From: a virus
UHGV virus genome: UHGV-1442331
Strand: one strand, 5' to 3'
Length of the DNA stretch: 17,777 nt
Shown piece after piece: positions 6,242 to 15,075 of this stretch. Positions within the stretch are counted from its first letter, which is position 1, and the number at the start of each line of letters is the position of its first letter. Below the pieces are notes generated by a model. The model was given only the letters and a program-made list of their open reading frames with translations. It ran no database searches and was not told where the DNA came from. Position numbers and translations under genes: made by a program.

Positions 6242-7432
6242 TTAATTGCTGTTAACCGAGGTGACCAGATTTGCCAGATATTTATCAGTAATACGCTGGC
6301 GCAGGGTCAGGTTTTCGAGAGGAGGCACCGGGGTATAGTCATAGTCGATATACAGTTTTCCGGCCTTGAGGGTTTCCGCATCGTTGGATTCTTCGCTGAA
6401 CCAGCAGGTCGCATCCACGATATAGCCGTTTGTTTTCAGCTCACGGAATTTGGCATTGATGCCGTCAACGATGTCGCGAATCAGCGTTGCGGTGATGGGC
6501 TTATCCACCGCCCACATGTGCGCCTCAGCCATCGTGTCGGCCAGCACCTGCGCGGTGCGGGTGTAGTTTTCAAAGAGGAACAGTGGGTCATCAGAGCAGG
6601 TACGGTTACCCCAGAAGCGGAAACCGTCACGGCGAATCAGCGTTGTGACACCTGCCTCGTTCAGCAGGTCAGCATCGGTGCCGGACTCCTGCAAATCCCA
6701 GAATACAGAGGCGCTGATGCCGGTAACACCGTTTACCCCGACATTGGACAGCGTTTTATGCCAGCCCTGCTCCTGGTCGATTTTAGCGCGCAGACCCAGC
6801 GCACGGGCGGTGGCATACGCGGTGGCGGTGGTGCTGCTGACCGTATCCCATGCGAGGAAATCCGGCCAGATGACCATCAGCTCACGCTGGCTGAAATTCT
6901 GGCGGTAGGCTTTCACCTCGGAAATGGTTTTACAGCCCCATGCGCTGATATACCCGAAAGCGCGCAGCTTCTGACAGACTGATGCCAGTGCAACAGCCAC
7001 CTCTTTGGTGTCCAGTCCCGGCACGCCGAGAATACGCGGTTTAACACCGGTTACCGACTCCGCCGCCAGCAGGGCTTTCAGTCCGGTGTACTGACCGTTT
7101 TCGTCGGTGGTGCCGATGATATTGGAAACGGTCTGCGCGAGTTTCGTTTCTTCGTCATCGCCGGTGCCGTCTTCCACGCGCACGACAACGGTGACCGGTT
7201 TTGACTGGTCGGCGATGGCCTGCAACGATGCCGCCAGCGTGCCTTTTTTACCGGCCTTTGCAATTGCGCTCTGCACATTGGTAATCAGCACAGGTTTATT
7301 GAGGGGGAAGGTTTCCGCATCCGCATCGCTAGCCGTACAGACCATGCCGACAACGGCAGTGGATACGGTGGAAATGACGCGGGTGCCGTCGTTAATCTCC
7401 AGCACCTGCACGCCATGATGATAGTCACTCAT
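6242..7432 (-). CDS. FI: Contractile tail sheath protein FI (396 aa)
   Basis: 396-aa ORF MSDYHHGVQVLEINDGTRVISTV... matching P2 gpFI in sequence and length. Confidence 0.9.
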   Translation of the reverse strand: MSDYHHGVQVLEINDGTRVISTVSTAVVGMVCTASDADAETFPLNKPVLITNVQSAIAKAGKKGTLAASLQAIADQSKPVTVVVRVEDGTGDDEETKLAQTVSNIIGTTDENGQYTGLKALLAAESVTGVKPRILGVPGLDTKEVAVALASVCQKLRAFGYISAWGCKTISEVKAYRQNFSQRELMVIWPDFLAWDTVSSTTATAYATARALGLRAKIDQEQGWHKTLSNVGVNGVTGISASVFWDLQESGTDADLLNEAGVTTLIRRDGFRFWGNRTCSDDPLFLFENYTRTAQVLADTMAEAHMWAVDKPITATLIRDIVDGINAKFRELKTNGYIVDATCWFSEESNDAETLKAGKLYIDYDYTPVPPLENLTLRQRITDKYLANLVTSVNSN

Positions 7433-7754: not shown

Positions 7755-8525
7755 ATGTATAAAGAACTTATAGAACAGAGACTGAATGAGGCAAAAGCCG
7801 CCAGAGCTGCGCTGAGCAAGACTAATGGTGTAATTGTCGAAAAAACACATAACCCTGACCGCGGACTGTATCTCGTTAATTATGCCAATTTACTTATGAA
7901 CAGGCAGATAGACATCTTCGATGATGCGCTTCTCCTCCTCGAAAACGAACGATACCAAAGCGCTTGTATTGTTAGCCGAGGAATGATTGAAACTCATGCC
8001 TTCTCACGACTCTTAAACAAGAAAGTAGAGAAAATTTTGACTACCCAAAATGGCCACGCAAGTGTAGATAACGCTATCGAAGTTATATTGAACTTTACGA
8101 ATAGTTCTCGATTTAAAAAGTCAGAGCAAGAAAAGATTCAGAAAGGAGTATTTGACCCGAACGACTACATGTTTACTGAGGAGGCTAAATATCGTTTTGA
8201 AAACCTACTTGCTGTCAGTATGCATGTGATGACTGCTTTACGCGAACTCTATAAAGATGAGATGAAGCAGACTAATCAGATGGAAAGTGATTTTGAACTG
8301 ACTTATGACATACTTAGCGAATATGTTCATCCTTCACAAACGAGCATCTACCACTACTACACACCTGAAACCCACTTAGTTCCTACTTCAGTTGGTAATA
8401 TTCATGCTTATGTGCATGCTCAGCTACAATGTGTGAGAGCGCTACTTTTCATATTAGAAGCAAAGAGTCAACATTATTGGTCTACACAGTTAGCAAATGA
8501 GATGACCAAACGAGCTAAAGAGTAA
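7755..8525 (+). CDS. Hypothetical 256-aa soluble protein in the G-FI accessory slot (P2 Z/fun position); candidate phage-exclusion or defence gene
   Basis: ATG preceded by an aagga SD with 8-nt spacing. Opposite strand to every flanking late gene. Hand-counted GC about 33-47% in three 60-nt blocks, against a clearly GC-richer backbone. No TM segments; no domain recognised. Confidence 0.7.
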   Translation: MYKELIEQRLNEAKAARAALSKTNGVIVEKTHNPDRGLYLVNYANLLMNRQIDIFDDALLLLENERYQSACIVSRGMIETHAFSRLLNKKVEKILTTQNGHASVDNAIEVILNFTNSSRFKKSEQEKIQKGVFDPNDYMFTEEAKYRFENLLAVSMHVMTALRELYKDEMKQTNQMESDFELTYDILSEYVHPSQTSIYHYYTPETHLVPTSVGNIHAYVHAQLQCVRALLFILEAKSQHYWSTQLANEMTKRAKE

Positions 8526-8715: not shown

Positions 8716-9243
8716 TTATTGTGGCATTTCCGGCCATTCAGGATTTGCAGGATCCACACGACTGACCAGAACGCTGTAGCGTTCCCATGCTTCCAGTCGG
8801 CTGCGTTCCTCATCTGTTGCCATATTCAGCCTGACAGCGCGCTCCAGCGGCAAAATTACGGATTCAGCTTCGGAAAGCAAAGCTGCCTTCTGTAATTCCG
8901 CCTGTTGTTGCTGTTCATCTGCCGTATAAATCCGTTTAACCACAGCACCATCCTTAAACATCCATTTACCTGAGTCGTCAGCACGTCGGTTGGAGGTAAT
9001 ATCAGGAACCTCAACAACGCTAAAACCTTCAGGATTAAGCGTTGAAGCATCTCTGGTGATAGCGACAATAATATTATTTTCATCGTAAACAATCTTTATT
9101 GTGTCTGGCTGAAAGTTCTTCACTTCCTCATACCAGTTTTTTCCGTCTTCGGACCATAACCAGATAACATCAAAATTCTTTGTTAGCTGATATTGCTCTT
9201 TTGTTTTTGGATTACCTGACTTAATGTTCTTTAAATGCTGCAT
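8716..9243 (-). CDS. G: Tail fiber assembly chaperone G (175 aa)
   Basis: 175-aa ORF directly downstream of H, matching P2 gpG in sequence and length. Confidence 0.9.
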
Positions 9244-9246
9244 AAC

Positions 9247-11256
9247 TTACACCTGCGCAACGTTATACCATGTGCCATTGATGTATTTTTGTATCGGCCT
9301 GAAGATGGCTTCATCATCGCCATCCACTTCACCAATGATTCTTAATCCGGTAATCGTGTGTCCGGCTTTTTCATAACGACCACCTCGCGCCATCAATTGA
9401 ACAACTCGCGTACCCAGGCGAACATCTTTCACATAGCGGGAATCAAAATTCCCCCAGTTGCTGGGTTGCATCTGACCGTTAACAGCAAATATTACCGAGT
9501 TATCTGTATTTCGCTGGCTATAGAAATGCCATCCGGCCTCATCGCCTAACTCTGCAACCACTGGACGGGTGGAAGCACCCCATAAATTAAAGGTAATATT
9601 CTTCGTGGATGTGTTAGAGCTGGATAGCGAGAACTTTTTACTATCCCCTGCCTGAATATTTTTAAAAGCAATAGCCACTCCATTCTGAAAACGGAATACT
9701 CGCTGACTGTTAGCATAAACATCAAGAATACCGTCTCCATTCTGTTTAAATCCGGTATCATTATCACCAAGAACAATTGAGCTACCACCTAGTGCATTCG
9801 TCGTACCAACTCCAAAACAGCCATTAATGACGGCATTAACAAGAATATTTAGTGCATCCCATTTCAACGTCATCAGGTCTTTTGTTGTGGTACTCTGGCG
9901 GCTTCTCCATTTGAAATATTCATTGCCGTTATCCCCCGTTTCAAACCACATGTATGAATCAGTGTCACCATCGGCATCATTTTTAAATCCAATCTTCGCC
10001 CAGTCAGTATTTCGAATCCAGGCAAGGATTGAGTCGTTTTCAAAAGTAAGTCCACCGGACAAGGTATCGCCATTTTTTTGCACGGCGTTCCCGGCTCGGT
10101 TTACCGTTTCCTGTAAACCGAGATATTCGATAACGGCGGCAACGGTCGATTTAGCCAGAATATCCCGCCCGACTTTTGTCAGGGTCGCCAGGCTGGCAAC
10201 ATCATTCCCCGTAAAATACGGAAACCTGTCTGCCGCAGTAGCAAGCCCCGCCAGCGCCGTCAAAGTGGCATCTTTCGGTTGCTTACCCGCAAGCGCATTA
10301 GTCATGGTGGTAGCAAAATTCGGGTCATTGCCCAGCGCCGCCGCCAGCTCGTTCAGCGTATTCAGTGCGTCAGGCGACGAGTCTACAAGGGCGGCAATCG
10401 CGGCCATAACGAAAGCCGTGTTTGCGATCTGAGTATTATTCGTTCCCTGTCGCGCAGTTGGCGTCGTTGGCGTTCCGGTCAGTGCAGGGCTGTTTAATGG
10501 CGCTTTTTTGTTCGTTTCATCCATTACCGTCTTAACGGCTTTTGGTGTTGCGGCGAGCGTTTCAGACGTGCTGTTGGTGGCACTACTGAGCTGGACAAGG
10601 CCTTTTCGCGCTGTGGTGGCGTCCTGTGCGGTATATTTCCCGTTAGCCAGGTCATATGCGGCCTTAACCGCTTTCGGCGTTGCAGCCAGTGTTTCAGACG
10701 TGCTGTTGGTCGCACTGCTTAACTGAGTAAAACCTTTTGCGGTCAGCGAGGCGTCCGGGTGACGTCGTGACTGTTCATGTTCTGCAATTTTGTCATCAAC
10801 GTAATCCTGCGTCGCCATCACCGTTGTGGTGTCAATGGTCAGCTCCACTGAGGCCACACTGCTGACGATGATGACCATGCGACAGGTCTGCGAACGCCCT
10901 GAGCCTTCGGCAAGAGCTGGCTTATAACTTTCGGCCATGTTCGCCACGGCAATTAATGTTCCCGCATCATCGTACAGGCCAAGCTCACGCATCCAGAAAC
11001 CGCCCACCTCCGGCGGAATAACCAGCTCTGCGATAATATAATTACTGTTTCGTTTGTCCTGGCTGATTTTGTTCAGCGCATGTCGCCAGACTTCATGGAT
11101 AAGCCCGGTCTGTCCGGCATCCGGGACAGGCAATTTACCACCGCCATCCCCGACGGCCATCGTGGTAATGTTGACCTTCCGCCCTCCCGGCGCGGTTGCC
11201 GCTGCCAGCTTTGCTGCACCGGCAGTGGTGATAACGGTTCTGAATTTTGTGCTCAT
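9247..11256 (-). CDS. H: Tail fiber protein H (669 aa)
   Basis: 669-aa ORF MSTKFRTVITTAGAAKLAAATAPG... matching P2 gpH, including the duplicated QLSSATNSTSETLAATPKAVK motif. Confidence 0.9.
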   Translation of the reverse strand: MSTKFRTVITTAGAAKLAAATAPGGRKVNITTMAVGDGGGKLPVPDAGQTGLIHEVWRHALNKISQDKRNSNYIIAELVIPPEVGGFWMRELGLYDDAGTLIAVANMAESYKPALAEGSGRSQTCRMVIIVSSVASVELTIDTTTVMATQDYVDDKIAEHEQSRRHPDASLTAKGFTQLSSATNSTSETLAATPKAVKAAYDLANGKYTAQDATTARKGLVQLSSATNSTSETLAATPKAVKTVMDETNKKAPLNSPALTGTPTTPTARQGTNNTQIANTAFVMAAIAALVDSSPDALNTLNELAAALGNDPNFATTMTNALAGKQPKDATLTALAGLATAADRFPYFTGNDVASLATLTKVGRDILAKSTVAAVIEYLGLQETVNRAGNAVQKNGDTLSGGLTFENDSILAWIRNTDWAKIGFKNDADGDTDSYMWFETGDNGNEYFKWRSRQSTTTKDLMTLKWDALNILVNAVINGCFGVGTTNALGGSSIVLGDNDTGFKQNGDGILDVYANSQRVFRFQNGVAIAFKNIQAGDSKKFSLSSSNTSTKNITFNLWGASTRPVVAELGDEAGWHFYSQRNTDNSVIFAVNGQMQPSNWGNFDSRYVKDVRLGTRVVQLMARGGRYEKAGHTITGLRIIGEVDGDDEAIFRPIQKYINGTWYNVAQV
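10531..10725. repeat. Imperfect ~63-bp direct repeat (two copies, ~133 bp apart) inside H, encoding the duplicated peptide QLSSATNSTSETLAATPKAVK
   Basis: Copies at about 10531-10593 and 10664-10725 aligned by hand, roughly 83% identical; mirrored by the plus-strand ORF 10508..10726 showing LTAFGVAASVSDVLLVALL twice. Confidence 0.75.
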
Positions 11257-12702: not shown

Positions 12703-13050
12703 TCAACTCACAGGGATGGTTAACGAAAGTGGCTGGCCGGTGTCGTTGTGCTGGCCGGTTAACGTGACCGTCATTCGCCCGTCAAAACTGCGCTCAGTGG
12801 TGACGGATGACAGGGTGACGCGGGGTTCCCATTTCAGCACCGCCATGTAACAGGCGACCTTAATCTGCAACTCAAGCGCCGGGGTCTGCGGCTGGTCAAT
12901 CATTGATGCCAGCAACGAGCCGTAATCACGACGCATCACCCGTGAGCCGACCGGTGTGCGCAGGATATCGCCGATACTCTGGCTGATATGCTCAAGGTCA
13001 GTGACAGTCAGGCCATCACTGCGATTCATTCCGAGATAACGCGCTGTCAT
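12703..13050 (-). CDS. W: Baseplate wedge protein W (115 aa, gp25-like)
   Basis: 115-aa ORF matching P2 gpW length and position. Confidence 0.85.
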   Translation of the reverse strand: MTARYLGMNRSDGLTVTDLEHISQSIGDILRTPVGSRVMRRDYGSLLASMIDQPQTPALELQIKVACYMAVLKWEPRVTLSSVTTERSFDGRMTVTLTGQHNDTGQPLSLTIPVS

Positions 13051-13682
13051 AAAGGACTCCCGGTTGTGCCGCCGCTGTCGCCGGGGTGTTTATGGGTATG
13101 CAGTACCTTACCGTTTGATGAGAGTTCACCGCCGGTGTGTTCAATGTTGCCGCGCATCGTCCCGCCCTTCTGCACTTCCAGCGTGCCGGTAATCAGCCTG
13201 TTGGTGCAGACCACCTCCGGGGTGTCCAGGGTGACGCGGGTTGATGCTTTCACCATGACCACCGGCACCGTGGCAGTAACAGAATCAGAAGCCGTCACGC
13301 TGGCCGTTTTAATTCCGCTTACCGTGAGTGCACTGGTTTCGGGTTCATATTCAATCACCGCCCCGTCAGGGAAACGGATATGCAGGGCATCCGCCGACAC
13401 AGACGGCGAGGGGTTATCGCCGGAATAAATCCCCGGCAGAACGAACGCCGTGTCGAGTTCACCGCCCACGGCCAGAATCAGCACCTGCTCCCCCACGGAA
13501 GGTGCCCACCATGTGCGCGAACGACCGGCACGATGGGTCAGCCACTGAAGCCAGTCAGTGCACATGCCGCCGGTCTGCACACGGCAGCGACCGGCGTTAA
13601 GGTCGGTTTCGACGATAATGCCGGTGCGAATCATGTTGCGCAGTGCGCGCGCGAGTTCCTGAATATTTGCGAGAGTGTTCAT
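13047..13682 (-). CDS. V: Baseplate spike/assembly protein V (211 aa from the internal Met)
   Basis: MNTLANIQELARALRNMIRTGIIVETDLNAGRCRV... matches P2 gpV. The track ORF starts 6 codons earlier (13700); the 211-aa start is chosen to match P2. Confidence 0.85.
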   Translation of the reverse strand: MNTLANIQELARALRNMIRTGIIVETDLNAGRCRVQTGGMCTDWLQWLTHRAGRSRTWWAPSVGEQVLILAVGGELDTAFVLPGIYSGDNPSPSVSADALHIRFPDGAVIEYEPETSALTVSGIKTASVTASDSVTATVPVVMVKASTRVTLDTPEVVCTNRLITGTLEVQKGGTMRGNIEHTGGELSSNGKVLHTHKHPGDSGGTTGSPL

Positions 13683-13765
13683 GCATGTGAGATTGCACAA
13701 TATATAAAAGTTATGCTATCTGGATTCATTTGTAGAACTACCAGACAACATTCAAGGAGAGCGTA

Positions 13766-14551
13766 ATGGTCAGCTATAATGTGACTAATGTGTGGGGGCT
13801 AATCGTTTTTTTCCTTTGTAGCTTTGCAGTATTAGCATTTTTTAGCTTTGGTAAAAGTAACCTTATGAGGCTTATTGCACATTATTTCAATTTTGGATAT
13901 TCAGACAAAAAATTAAAAAGACTTGACCGCGAGTGGCGCGACATTCAACTATTTAAAATAATTAACGGAATCAATGTATCAGGCATTGAAAATGTGAGAA
14001 TGATACAGCAGGGACTGATTGATGGAAAACTAAAAACATCGTATTTTTTCCTTACTCGCATCTGGGGTGACATAACAAAACCACCACACATAATTAAAAC
14101 AATAATTGTAATTCTGGCCAGTATTTTTTACATTCTCCTCGCATGTTATATACACAACAAACAATCCGCTATAGTAAGAGATGCCATAGGCATACCATAT
14201 AAAAATATGATGTACTATGTTTATAGTGACAAAGTTCTTTTATCCTTCAACAATAAAACAGTTGAATTCAATAAAACTTATAGCCTTGCCGATTGCAAGA
14301 GACTGCAAAACGTATTTATAAAAGACACACTTCCTGAGATCGCCTGCAATAAGCTCTTACAGCTAAACGAGGAGGACTCCGAATGGTTAAGCCAGGAGAT
14401 TAAAGATAATAACAGTCACAAAAAAGCATTATTAATACTATCCCTCGTCTATTTCACTTCAGGTCTGGTTATATTCCTGTCATATACAAAATTCTTTTAC
14501 GCCAATAAGAAGGTTTTAGAATACAAAGCATCAAATAAAAATCACTCATAA
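13766..14551 (+). CDS. Hypothetical 261-aa integral membrane protein (three predicted TM helices) in the S-V accessory slot (P2 orf30 position); candidate lysogenic-conversion, exclusion or defence gene
   Basis: ATG preceded by a strong aaggaga SD with 5-nt spacing. Opposite strand to the late genes. Hand-counted GC about 23-38% in three 60-nt blocks versus about 65% in a block of V. Hydrophobic stretches VWGLIVFFLCSFAVLAFFSF, IIKTIIVILASIFYILLACYI and ALLILSLVYFTSGLVIFLSY. Confidence 0.75.
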   Translation: MVSYNVTNVWGLIVFFLCSFAVLAFFSFGKSNLMRLIAHYFNFGYSDKKLKRLDREWRDIQLFKIINGINVSGIENVRMIQQGLIDGKLKTSYFFLTRIWGDITKPPHIIKTIIVILASIFYILLACYIHNKQSAIVRDAIGIPYKNMMYYVYSDKVLLSFNNKTVEFNKTYSLADCKRLQNVFIKDTLPEIACNKLLQLNEEDSEWLSQEIKDNNSHKKALLILSLVYFTSGLVIFLSYTKFFYANKKVLEYKASNKNHS

Positions 14552-14557
14552 ACCTCT

Positions 14558-14592
14558 AAACATTGAGCGACCAGCATGGCCGCTCAATGTTT
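14558..14592. terminator. Probable bidirectional terminator between the membrane-protein ORF (+) and S (-)
   Basis: Perfect 12-bp inverted repeat aaacattgagcg / cgctcaatgttt with an 11-nt loop, 7 nt after the plus-strand stop and about 30 nt after the S stop; flanks are A/T-rich. Confidence 0.5.
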
Positions 14593-14622
14593 AATTGCGC
14601 ATCAGCCTCTGCCTGGATAAAA

Positions 14623-15075
14623 CTAACGCTCAAGGTGAGCCAGGATAATCTCTTCAATCATCTGCACATCCTCACCGGTAAAGCCGAGCAGAGGACGCGC
14701 CGGATAATCAATTTTCTTACCGTCTTTCCGGGTTTCTTCCGACAGACCGAACTGATGCACACTGGCGATTTTCGGCGACTTCCCGCCGTAAAATTCCATT
14801 GATGCCTGTTCCGGGCTGGCACGGATATGCAAAAAACGACTGGTGATAAGTTTCGCAAACATTTTTCGCTTAACACGACCGGTCTTTTTTCTGGCGCTCT
14901 GCTGCTGGCGTGGCGCGTAGGGTGTGCCGTCCGGGGCTTTCTGTGCCATCACCCGACGCTGCTGACTCTGCCGCAGACGCTTCGCCAGCTCTGCACTCAG
15001 CCGCCGACGCCCTGACGGTGACAGCGACTCAATCAGTCCGGTCAGCCGGTCTTCAAAACGCTTAAACTCATTCAT
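14623..15075 (-). CDS. S: Tail completion protein S (150 aa)
   Basis: 150-aa ORF matching P2 gpS length and position downstream of R. Confidence 0.85.
   Translation of the reverse strand: MNEFKRFEDRLTGLIESLSPSGRRRLSAELAKRLRQSQQRRVMAQKAPDGTPYAPRQQQSARKKTGRVKRKMFAKLITSRFLHIRASPEQASMEFYGGKSPKIASVHQFGLSEETRKDGKKIDYPARPLLGFTGEDVQMIEEIILAHLER

What the first reader, a model, noticed from the sequence alone, without database searches (positions are those of the whole stretch)
13683..14622. Strongly AT-rich three-TM membrane protein gene inserted divergently between S and V (orf30 slot)
Seen: a 261-aa ORF with a strong SD, on the opposite strand to the late genes, with hand-counted GC of 23-38% against about 65% in neighbouring V. 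It has three hydrophobic helices separated by two ~80-90-aa soluble regions, and a perfect 12-bp stem hairpin follows it. Only about 83 bp separate its start from the V start, so its promoter must be packed back-to-back with the late promoter for V. Established: the S-V interval of P2 contains a non-essential ORF (orf30) of unknown function. Inference: the composition marks it as foreign cargo; small membrane proteins in prophages often act in superinfection exclusion or abortive infection. I cannot confirm identity with P2 orf30.
Basis: partly seen in the sequence, partly recalled or inferred. Interest (0 to 1): 0.7.

Follow-up and report, generated by a model that had tools for sequence, protein, structure and literature searches.

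The report
Phage P2 orf30 membrane-protein gene
This is the long-known but still uncharacterised orf30 gene of phage P2, an optional AT-rich gene for a three-pass inner-membrane protein; it belongs to a small, fast-evolving family that occupies the same gap between two tail genes in P2-like prophages of several bacterial genera, so it is a good candidate for a prophage-encoded protection function, though not a new discovery.

Summary
Window 13766-14551 (+) is a 261-aa ORF with a strong SD and 33.7% GC, against 55-60% in flanking S and V. It has three hydrophobic helices and is followed by a stable hairpin.

It is P2 orf30: 256/261 aa identical to AAD03281.1, which is annotated 'nonessential'.

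It is optional. It is absent from about 70% of close P2 relatives, whose S-V gap is a 66-bp intergenic region. It is present in 464 of 5,426 complete E. coli genomes.

It is not random foreign cargo. Homologues only 20-25% identical, including a bona fide Pfam DUF6216 member, sit in the same S-V slot, divergently oriented and equally AT-rich, in P2-like prophages of Serratia, Sodalis and another enterobacterium. Three degraded prophages, E. coli B among them, keep the gene intact.

dN/dS is 0.45, so this is a real gene. The loops are constrained and the TM helices are nearly free.

Family-wide charge bias and an invariant Cys pair predict an N-out/C-in topology, a conserved cytoplasmic loop and a disulfide-bonded periplasmic α/β domain.

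No Pfam, PADLOC or PDB assignment was found. There is only a weak CorA-like fold resemblance.

Function is untested. The best guess is an inner-membrane exclusion protein of the lysogen, analogous but not homologous to P22 SieA, HK97 gp15 or T4 Imm.

The gene is already known. Interest is moderate.

The parts
13047..13682 (-). Flank: baseplate spike gene V (211 aa from the ATG at 13682)
   Evidence: ORF list. Matches P2 gpV in the annotated P2 record. 59.6% GC.
13683..13765 (.). 83-bp divergent control region between the V and orf30 start codons. It contains the P2-annotated Ogr activator site for the pV late promoter (window 13724-13751, acting on the - strand) and the orf30 Shine-Dalgarno AAGGAGAG (13754-13761, + strand).
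   Evidence: Sequence. P2 GenBank features mapped through the 98.9% identical alignment. No convincing sigma-70 promoter for orf30. The whole interval differs from the WPhi-type intergenic region right from the V ATG.
13766..14551 (+). orf30 coding sequence, 261 aa plus stop. An allele of P2 Orf30 and a member of PHROG 2407.
   Evidence: dN/dS is 0.45 over 9 alleles, against 0.06-0.12 for V, S, W and R.
13790..13852 (+). TM1 (residues ~9-29). The N-terminus is predicted periplasmic.
   Evidence: Hydropathy. The family N-terminus has no K/R. dN/dS is 1.16.
13853..14086 (+). Loop 1 (residues 30-107), predicted cytoplasmic and helical. It carries the family's most conserved motif, D59-x-QLF[KR]-xx-NG[IV]NV...DA...G87.
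   Evidence: Alignment A2, with G68 and G87 invariant. Net charge is +5 family-wide. dN/dS is 0.32. AF2 helices at 48-67 and 74-86.
14087..14155 (+). TM2 (residues ~108-130)
   Evidence: Hydropathy. dN/dS is 0.71.
14156..14422 (+). Loop 2 (residues 131-219), predicted periplasmic α/β domain: four β-strands plus helices, with the Cys177/Cys194 pair.
   Evidence: AF2 model with pLDDT 84 and pTM 0.75. Net charge is about 0, and all 29 family members have exactly two Cys in this loop, with C194 invariant. dN/dS is 0.30.
14423..14485 (+). TM3 (residues ~220-240), followed by a Lys-rich cytoplasmic tail (241-261, window 14486-14548)
   Evidence: Hydropathy. Tail net charge is +2.1 family-wide. dN/dS is 0.85 for TM3 and 0.26 for the tail.
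14557..14593 (.). Stable inverted repeat between the convergent orf30 and S genes. It is a potential bidirectional terminator and is annotated in P2 as the O-operon terminator.
   Evidence: The simple terminator scan did not call it, because no T-run follows on either strand.
14623..15075 (-). Flank: tail completion gene S (150 aa)

Best explanation
SHOWN.
- The interval is the orf30 cassette of a P2-type prophage: one AT-rich gene, its SD, a downstream hairpin, and the P2-type version of the pV late-promoter region. Together these replace the 66-bp S-V intergenic region of 'empty' relatives.
- The product belongs to a small family (Orf30 and its relatives, which reach into Pfam DUF6216) of ~250-270-aa proteins with three membrane helices.
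- In most lineages examined, the family sits in this same slot of P2-like prophages.
- The gene is under purifying selection in its two soluble loops and nearly free in its membrane helices.
- Alleles diverge or are exchanged far faster than the neighbouring tail genes.
- Degraded prophages keep the gene intact.

INFERRED (topology).
- N-terminus out and C-terminus in.
- Loop 1 is a conserved cytoplasmic helical domain.
- Loop 2 is a periplasmic, disulfide-bonded α/β domain.

INFERRED (function, my commitment).
- It is a moron-type lysogenic-conversion gene.
- Its inner-membrane product protects the lysogen by interfering with an incoming phage at the periplasm/inner-membrane step of genome delivery. 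This is superinfection exclusion in the manner of P22 SieA, HK97 gp15 or T4 Imm, by analogy only and not by homology.
- The variable periplasmic domain and membrane helices would provide target specificity, and the conserved cytoplasmic loop a common function.
- The target is probably not P2 itself.
For: Identity.

Optional, cassette-like nature with exact boundaries at the V ATG and the S stop.

Family size and architecture:
- 5 clusters at 90% identity.
- 44 representatives out of 1.84 billion proteins, all with the same layout.
- P0029 passes the DUF6216 gathering score (28.9 > 27.3 bits, end to end) and matches the Orf30 profile at E 7.9e-14.

Same slot, orientation and AT contrast (30-38% against 52-63% GC):
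- Serratia loci L010, L011, L016 and L012.
- Sodalis locus L023.
- Loci L024-26 and L027.
-.

Fast turnover:
- E. coli against Serratia: V 64-67%, R 57-59%, W 55% and S 43-45% identical, but Orf30 only 22-24%.
- Two Serratia prophages with V 94%, W 99%, R 97% and S 91% identity have Orf30 homologues only 45% identical.

Selection:
- ω is 0.45 overall.
- The loops and tail are 0.26-0.32, and the TMs 0.71-1.16.

Topology: charge bias and the 2-Cys rule hold in 29 of 29 members.

Retention in decayed prophages:
- E. coli B/REL606, where S is truncated and the head genes are deleted.
- S. rubidaea L012.
- L027.

Precedents from papers:
- HK97 gp15 is a moron inside the tail operon that inserts in the inner membrane and blocks superinfection (PMC3594210).
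- P22 SieA is a 3-TM inner-membrane protein with sequence types under 30% identical, and it blocks DNA injection (PMC10883804). In the P22 record it is encoded convergently, right after ejection-protein gene 16.
- T4 Imm binds the tape measure protein (bioRxiv 10.64898/2026.03.06.709160).
Against: - No experiment or database annotation links this family to phage resistance. PADLOC-DB v2 gives no hit for the protein or for the family, and PHROG 2407 is 'unknown function'.
- There is no homology to P22 SieA (hhalign probability 0.2%).
- No convincing lysogeny-type promoter was found upstream in P2 or the window, so expression from the repressed prophage is unproven.
- From my own knowledge of classical P2 genetics, P2 vir1 and heteroimmune P2 hybrids plate on P2 lysogens. 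Exclusion of P2's own tail type is therefore unlikely, which weakens the 'linked to its own tail genes' logic.
- Enterobacter homologues are solitary chromosomal genes outside prophages.
- Recent large surveys of P2 defence hotspots do not single out this slot (PMC9122126; PMC13586616).
- Retention in three decayed prophages could be chance.
Confidence: 0.35

Rival explanations
1. Abortive-infection or ion-channel type membrane effector. Orf30 would oligomerise into a pore or leak that is opened on infection, as with RexB, or as with CorA-type membrane effectors of other defence systems. This kills or arrests the infected lysogen rather than blocking entry.
For: - This fits a β-sheet-plus-helix domain leading through a long helix into the membrane.
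- The gene stands alone both in prophages and in chromosomal sites, as many single-gene Abi systems do.
Against: - There is no GMN motif, and no second TM follows the α/β domain.
- The membrane helices, including TM3, are the least constrained part of the protein (ω 0.71-1.16). That is unexpected for pore-lining helices.
- The CorA soluble domain is cytoplasmic, whereas the matching Orf30 domain is predicted periplasmic.
- No PADLOC hit.
Confidence: 0.2
2. A phage-own accessory of the lytic cycle or of tail-gene expression. Examples are a membrane protein that tunes lysis timing, prevents re-adsorption or superinfection during lytic growth, or exists mainly because the cassette supplies the terminator and pV promoter between the O and V operons.
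For: - It sits in a conserved position inside the late tail-gene cluster across genera.
- In P2 the cassette carries the O-operon terminator and the Ogr site for pV.
- No lysogeny-type promoter is detectable in P2.
- The 3-TM N-out/C-in topology is formally that of class I holins (own knowledge).
Against: - It is annotated nonessential in P2.
- Most close relatives do without it, using a 66-bp intergenic region with its own hairpin.
- It is transcribed against the late operons. In Serratia and Sodalis its 3' end overlaps S, so late transcription would run antisense to it.
- It is kept intact in prophages that have lost their lysis and head genes.
- It occurs outside phages in Enterobacter.
- It is more than twice the size of holins and has large soluble domains.
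Confidence: 0.15
3. Lysogenic conversion of the cell envelope unrelated to phage defence. Examples are protection against colicins or tailocins, stress or host-niche fitness, or modulation of a host inner-membrane or periplasmic machine.
For: - The predicted inner-membrane protein has a disulfide-bonded periplasmic domain.
- It is carried by 8.6% of complete E. coli genomes from many hosts.
- Chromosomal copies in Enterobacter lie next to envelope, chemotaxis and redox genes.
- Morons are known to provide non-phage benefits, such as Lom/Bor and Cor against colicin M (PMC3594210).
Against: - No similarity to any known envelope-modifying enzyme or immunity protein.
- The very fast allele turnover, far faster than in the adjacent tail genes, is more typical of antagonistic coevolution with other mobile elements than of a housekeeping-type envelope function.
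Confidence: 0.15
4. A decaying or non-functional AT-rich remnant that only looks like a gene.
For: No function has been known since 1998. No promoter was found.
Against: - The ORF is full length in 461 of 464 E. coli genomes that carry it.
- ω is 0.45 overall and 0.26-0.32 in the soluble parts.
- Architecture, motif and Cys pair are conserved down to ~20% identity across genera.
- The AF2 model is confident.
Confidence: 0.03

Closest known systems
Bacteriophage P2 Orf30 (AAD03281.1; AF063097 9439-10224)
   Same: 256/261 identical residues, the same S-V slot and divergent orientation, and the same hairpin and pV/Ogr region. The window gene is an allele of it.
   Different: Five substitutions (K132E, A135V, I141T, N162K, T165A, written window to P2). 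The rest of the window is not P2 itself: the Z/fun slot carries a different gene.
Pfam DUF6216 (PF19723), a family of unknown function
   Same: Same length (~270 aa) and end-to-end alignment. 10 of 29 Orf30-family members hit it. One of them, the Sodalis protein P0029, passes the gathering threshold and sits in the same S-V slot.
   Different: The window protein itself gives no hit at E ≤ 1, so it is a divergent sister branch linked only through profile searches. DUF6216 carries no functional information.
P22 SieA (superinfection exclusion, inner membrane)
   Same: Prophage-encoded, with three predicted TM segments, and an inner-membrane protein. It has several sequence types under 30% identical. 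It is encoded on the opposite strand at the edge of the virion-gene cluster (PMC10883804).
   Different: 162 aa against 261 aa, with no large soluble loops. No detectable homology (hhalign probability 0.2%). SieA's function is demonstrated; Orf30's is not.
HK97 gp15 moron
   Same: A compositionally deviant moron inserted inside a tail-gene operon, encoding a small inner-membrane protein. It is dispensable for the phage and useful to the lysogen (PMC3594210).
   Different: gp15 is much smaller, has a single N-terminal anchor, lies in a siphovirus, and has been shown to block DNA entry. Homology to Orf30 was not tested here.
T4 Imm
   Same: An inner-membrane protein of a contractile-tailed phage that stops genome translocation by binding the tape measure protein (bioRxiv 10.64898/2026.03.06.709160). 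It is a mechanistic model for what Orf30 might do.
   Different: Imm comes from a virulent phage, is expressed early, and is small. No sequence comparison was made here.
CorA/ZntB/Mrs2 divalent-cation channels (fold only)
   Different: No GMN motif, and only one TM after the domain. The domain is predicted periplasmic rather than cytoplasmic, the TM helices are poorly conserved, and sequence searches find nothing.
Other P2 morons: old, tin, fun(Z)
   Same: AT-rich, nonessential genes in defined variable slots of P2-like phages. Those three are lysogenic-conversion genes that exclude other phages (PMC3091744; bioRxiv 10.1101/2024.10.15.618418).
   Different: Those slots hold very diverse, unrelated cargo. 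The S-V slot holds mostly one protein family or nothing. No exclusion phenotype has been assigned to orf30.

Membership tests
P2 Orf30 / PHROG 2407 | Full-length sequence match to P2 Orf30 | tested here: met
   98% identity over 261/261 residues. PHROG 2407 at E 1.4e-148, profile positions 1-261 of 261.
P2 Orf30 / PHROG 2407 | Location between S and V, transcribed opposite to the late genes | tested here: met
   The same holds for other alleles (L006, L017-L022).
Pfam DUF6216 (PF19723) | Score at or above the Pfam gathering threshold (27.3 bits) | tested here: not met
   No hit for the window protein at E ≤ 1. Only distant family members hit: P0029 28.9 bits, P0037 24.3, P0040 21.8.
Pfam DUF6216 (PF19723) | Transitive profile homology and shared architecture | tested here: met
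   P0029 is a DUF6216 member. It matches the Orf30-family profile at E 7.9e-14 over positions 15-258 and occupies the same genomic slot.
Moron (as defined in PMC3594210) | Base composition different from the surrounding phage genes | tested here: met
   33.7% against 55-60% GC.
Moron (as defined in PMC3594210) | Extra DNA absent from closely related phages | tested here: met
   WPhi and about 50 other Peduovirus records have only a 66-bp S-V spacer.
Moron (as defined in PMC3594210) | Own terminator | tested here: inconclusive
   A strong hairpin lies 5 nt after the stop, but without a T-run, and it is annotated in P2 as the terminator of the opposite-strand O operon. Serratia and Sodalis homologues overlap S with no hairpin between them.
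Moron (as defined in PMC3594210) | Own promoter active in the repressed prophage | tested here: inconclusive
   No sigma-70 consensus match upstream, with at best 7-8 of 12 positions. Expression data are not available with these tools.
P22 SieA-type superinfection exclusion proteins | Sequence or profile homology to SieA | tested here: not met
   hhalign of family alignment A2 against P22 SieA gives probability 0.2%.
P22 SieA-type superinfection exclusion proteins | Prophage-encoded inner-membrane protein with three TM segments | tested here: met
   By prediction only: hydropathy and the positive-inside rule.
P22 SieA-type superinfection exclusion proteins | Blocks DNA injection of superinfecting phage | not testable with these tools
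   Needs plating, K+ efflux or DNA-entry assays.
CorA/MIT metal-ion channels | GMN signature at the end of the first of two C-terminal TM helices | tested here: not met
   No GMN motif in the sequence, and only one TM (220-240) follows the α/β domain.
CorA/MIT metal-ion channels | Fold similarity of the soluble domain plus stalk helix | tested here: inconclusive
Known anti-phage defence systems (PADLOC-DB v2.0.0) | Match to any defence-protein HMM | tested here: not met
   0 families for the protein. Only three single-member chance hits (E 0.007-0.02) across 29 family members.
Class I holins | ~95-110 aa, three closely spaced TMs, encoded in the lysis cassette on the late strand | tested here: not met
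   261 aa with 78- and 89-residue loops, on the opposite strand and outside the Y-K-lysABC cassette. Only the N-out/C-in 3-TM topology is shared.

The most novel reading that the evidence does not exclude
Orf30/DUF6216 proteins are a so-far unrecognised family of single-gene, inner-membrane anti-phage proteins that P2-like phages carry in a dedicated slot between tail genes S and V. The family is fast-evolving, and alleles of different specificity are exchanged by recombination in the flanking tail genes. The periplasmic disulfide domain would recognise the incoming phage's membrane-penetrating apparatus. This would add a fourth lysogenic-conversion function to phage P2, after old, tin and fun, and give Pfam DUF6216 a function.
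Probability: 0.3. Interest if true: 0.6.

Novelty: already known. Interest (0 to 1): 0.35.

Why it matters
P2 is one of the best-studied temperate phages, and its other three AT-rich accessory genes (old, tin, fun) all proved to be anti-phage functions. orf30 is the only one left without a phenotype.

This work adds four things:
- It turns an orphan 'hypothetical protein' into a definable family with a link to DUF6216.
- It gives a predicted topology and two candidate functional regions.
- It provides a clear evolutionary signature: a slot-specific, rapidly diversifying family that survives prophage decay.
- It places the gene in about 9% of complete E. coli genomes, including E. coli B/REL606, the classical host for T-phage work.

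That makes a cheap and direct experiment worthwhile. If the gene is an exclusion protein, it would matter for interpreting phage host ranges on common lab and clinical strains, and for phage therapy.

If no phenotype is found, it remains an ordinary known moron.

Tried and rejected
- Pfam, PADLOC, NCBIfam and PDB-sequence searches found nothing for the protein or for the 29-member alignment, beyond sub-threshold DUF6216 hits and noise.
- Foldseek against afdb50 was unavailable.
- BFVD (viral structures) gave no hit with E ≤ 0.001.
- The search for related loci with the 29-sequence alignment failed because no stretch was conserved enough. The 7-sequence alignment found only three Enterobacter loci among the species-representative genomes.
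- The word-indexed homologue search is nearly blind for this family: 5, 14 and 1 hits.
- Literature:
  - No paper in the library assigns a function to P2 orf30.
  - The P2 defence-hotspot papers do not mention it.
  - The Christie & Calendar P2 review is not held.
  - Only two papers were listed for 'DUF6216'. The relevant one, bioRxiv 10.64898/2026.09.05.749240 on H-NS silencing of immunity genes, cannot be opened.
  - A term-count probe shows that preprint contains DUF6216 ×1, P2-like ×4, BL21 ×29 and transmembrane ×1.
- I checked whether that preprint could concern this gene. BL21(DE3) lacks the P2-like remnant at yegQ-yegR that E. coli B and REL606 carry, so the link is unresolved.
- Rejected: a late, Ogr-dependent rightward promoter for orf30. 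A start 55 bp from the Ogr-site centre would fall inside the ORF.
- Rejected: holin. Its size, its position and its strand all argue against it.
- Rejected: homology to P22 SieA.
Full report
**1. What is there**

The window carries the late region of a P2-type prophage on its minus strand. It is 96% identical to P2 over 90% of its length.

Between tail-completion gene S (14623..15075, -) and baseplate-spike gene V (13047..13682, -) lies one plus-strand ORF, 13766..14551, of 261 aa. An AAGGAGAG ribosome-binding site ends five bases before its ATG.

- The ORF is 33.7% GC. V is 59.6% and S is 54.7%. All three codon positions are depressed.
- Kyte-Doolittle analysis finds three hydrophobic segments at residues 9-29, 108-130 and 220-240.
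- Five bases after the stop codon sits an inverted repeat, 14557-14593, with 17-nt arms. It folds at -22.4 kcal/mol on the + strand and -29.9 on the - strand, z about -4.8.

The minor corrections are that the stem is 13 perfect base pairs plus three more, and that V averages 60% GC rather than 65%.

**2. Identity**

The 1.1-kb interval is 98.9% identical to P2 (AF063097) positions 9290-10390. The protein is 256/261 identical to P2 Orf30, annotated 'nonessential'.

The P2 record also annotates three features in this interval:
- the hairpin, as the putative terminator of the late O operon;
- the Ogr activator site of the pV late promoter, at window 13724-13751;
- the V transcription start, at the V ATG.

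The only family hit is PHROG 2407, unknown function. Pfam, PADLOC-DB v2, NCBIfam and PDB sequences give nothing. No paper in the searchable library assigns it a function, and it is listed as 'unknown' (PMC3091744).

**3. Optional cassette**

- Among 76 close P2-type phage records, 20 carry orf30. Of the rest, nearly all listed have an 'empty' slot.
- In WPhi the empty slot is a 66-bp spacer with its own GC-rich hairpin.
- The alignment shows that homology between the two slot states stops exactly at the V start codon and at the S stop codon. The P2-type cassette therefore replaces the whole intergenic region and brings its own hairpin and its own version of the pV control region.
- Phage R18C has a third state, an unrelated 246-aa soluble ORF on the late strand.
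- orf30 occurs in 464 of 5,426 complete E. coli genomes, always chromosomal. It is full length in 461, at 89-99% nucleotide identity, and always annotated 'hypothetical protein'.
- A flank-containing query matched 1,640 genomes, of which 459 had the gene. So roughly a quarter to a third of P2-type prophages carry it.

**4. The family and its genomic address (the main new result)**

The word-indexed search finds only five 90% clusters. An exhaustive profile search of 1.84 billion representatives finds 44, all ~250-270 aa with the same three-helix layout.

Ten of 29 aligned members touch Pfam DUF6216. One of them (P0029, Sodalis) passes its gathering score end to end, so Orf30 is a divergent branch of that uncharacterised family.

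I looked up the genomic context of nine lineages:
- **In the S-V slot.** The E. coli alleles, four Serratia homologues at 22-25% identity, the Sodalis DUF6216 protein and P0026, from another enterobacterium, all lie between S and V of P2-like prophages. In every case the gene is divergent from V and has 30-38% GC against 52-63% in its neighbours.
- **Next to V in a decayed element.** P0021 lies beside V and is followed by a second, tandem family member.
- **Exceptions.** Enterobacter homologues (35-40% identity) are solitary AT-rich genes in ordinary chromosomal surroundings. One metagenomic lineage is on short contigs.

The gene is dispensable and compositionally alien, but its family is a long-term, slot-specific companion of P2-like tail clusters.

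**5. Evolution**

- Between E. coli P2 and Serratia prophages, V is 64-67%, R 57-59%, W 55% and S 43-45% identical, but Orf30 only 22-24%.
- Between two Serratia prophages whose V, W, R and S are 91-99% identical, the Orf30 homologues are 45% identical. Either the protein diverges very fast, or distinct alleles are exchanged by recombination in the conserved flanks.
- Among nine E. coli-type alleles, Nei-Gojobori dN/dS is 0.45, against 0.06-0.12 for V, S, W and R. It is a real, selected gene with relaxed or partly diversifying constraint.
- By region, the two soluble loops and the C-terminal tail are constrained (0.26-0.32). The three membrane helices are nearly neutral (1.16, 0.71 and 0.85).
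- Three independent decayed prophages keep the gene intact:
  - E. coli B/REL606, where everything from S to the portal gene is deleted;
  - S. rubidaea L012;
  - L027.

**6. Protein anatomy**

Across 29 members:
- the N-terminus has no Lys or Arg;
- loop 1 has net charge +5;
- loop 2 has net charge about 0;
- the tail is +2.1;
- every member has exactly two cysteines in loop 2, with C194 invariant and C177 present in 26 of 29.

By the positive-inside rule this predicts N-out/C-in, a cytoplasmic loop 1 and a periplasmic, disulfide-bonded loop 2.

Loop 1 holds the family's best-conserved motif (D-x-QLF[KR]-xx-NG[IV]NV...DA...G), with G68 and G87 invariant.

AlphaFold2 with the 29-sequence alignment gives pLDDT 84 and pTM 0.75. 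It shows long helices through the membrane, a helical loop 1, and a four-stranded sheet plus helices in loop 2 that lead into a 58-residue helix containing TM3.

**7. Mechanism**

Nothing here tests function.

The features best fit a lysogenic-conversion protein acting at the envelope against other mobile elements:
- an optional AT-rich moron;
- a single gene that also survives alone;
- an inner-membrane location with a periplasmic domain;
- rapid allele turnover;
- survival in decayed prophages;
- the fact that P2's other AT-rich accessory genes all exclude phages.

Among such mechanisms I favour a block of genome delivery (confidence ~0.35). Prophage inner-membrane proteins of this general shape do exactly that:
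- HK97 gp15, itself a moron inside a tail operon (PMC3594210);
- P22 SieA, with three TMs and sequence types under 30% identical (PMC10883804), encoded convergently beside ejection-protein gene 16;
- T4 Imm, which binds the tape measure protein (bioRxiv 10.64898/2026.03.06.709160).

This is analogy only. hhalign finds no homology to SieA (probability 0.2%).

Weak points:
- No recognisable promoter in P2. Serratia-type loci do have a TACAAT/TAATAT-like -10 element 26-29 nt upstream of the ATG.
- No defence-database hit.
- From my own knowledge, P2 vir and heteroimmune hybrids plate on P2 lysogens, so P2 itself is probably not the target.

The rivals are:
- an Abi or channel-type effector (0.2);
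- a lytic-cycle or tail-operon accessory (0.15);
- a non-phage envelope function (0.15);
- a non-functional remnant (0.03).

**8. Verdict**

The object is an already known gene of unknown function. The added value is the family definition, the topology, and the evolutionary signature that make it a well-posed experimental target. Interest is moderate, at 0.35.

An unreadable 2026 preprint on H-NS-silenced immunity genes is the only relevant paper found that mentions DUF6216. It should be checked. BL21(DE3), its main strain by word count, lacks the B-type P2 remnant, so the connection is open.

Noticed in passing
window 7755-8525 (+), between G (8716-9243, -) and FI (6242-7432, -): The second classical P2 variable slot (Z/fun) is also occupied by an AT-rich (~38-43% GC), divergently oriented ORF of 256 aa. 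It is soluble and unrelated to P2 Fun(Z) (527 aa; BLASTP E 20), and it has no PADLOC hit. So the window is a P2 relative with P2-type orf30 but different Z-slot cargo, which makes this ORF another unannotated defence candidate.
   Followed up: partly
window 13682-13700 (V start region, - strand): The P2 record places the V-operon transcription start on the first base of the V ATG, and no Shine-Dalgarno sequence precedes that ATG in the window. V would then be translated from a leaderless mRNA. The ORF listing extends the ORF to an upstream TTG at 13700, which is probably not used.
   Followed up: no
L008 (WPhi) 1284-1349; L010/L011/L016/L012/L024/L027, about 110 nt upstream of the orf30-like ATG: There are two different insertion architectures. 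In P2 the whole WPhi-type S-V spacer (GGAAGGATGCCGCC...GC-hairpin...GGCACAAC) is replaced. In the Serratia, L024 and L027 prophages that spacer is retained next to V, and the orf30-like gene is inserted between it and S. In several of these the gene overlaps the S 3' end by 11-29 nt, with no hairpin between.
   Followed up: partly
L027 7001-7771 and 7900-8658: Two divergent family members (P0021 and P0044) lie in tandem next to V in a decayed P2-like element. This suggests stacking of alleles.
   Followed up: no
L028 (E. coli B-DidR) 14001-14786; identical in REL606, B and ATCC 11303; absent from BL21(DE3) (L031, yegQ-yegR): The defective P2-like prophage of E. coli B strains has lost everything from S to the portal gene but keeps an intact orf30 allele (92% nt identity to the window). 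It also carries an ABC-three-component system and a GT2 glycosyltransferase in the other variable slots. BL21(DE3) has lost the entire element. B and BL21 therefore differ in this gene, which could matter when comparing phage plating on them.
   Followed up: partly
L009 (phage R18C) 1381-2121: The S-V slot of R18C holds an unrelated 246-aa soluble ORF on the late strand, with CxxC...EHIIPxW...CxxCN motifs reminiscent of an HNH/zinc-finger nuclease. It has no PADLOC hit.
   Followed up: partly
L003 5968-6759, L004, L005 (Enterobacter spp.): The 35-40% identical homologues are single AT-rich genes (35-36% GC in a 55-65% GC background). They lie in non-phage chromosomal sites next to a methyl-accepting chemotaxis protein, an ECF sigma factor/DsbD cluster or an OMP gene. 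The gene can therefore exist and be maintained without any P2 context.
   Followed up: partly
literature (bioRxiv 10.64898/2026.09.05.749240): Of the two papers listed for 'DUF6216', the only relevant one is a September 2026 preprint on H-NS silencing of AT-rich immunity genes. It also mentions 'P2-like' (×4), BL21 (×29) and 'transmembrane' (×1). It could not be opened, so whether it reports a phenotype for a DUF6216/Orf30-type gene is unknown.
   Followed up: partly
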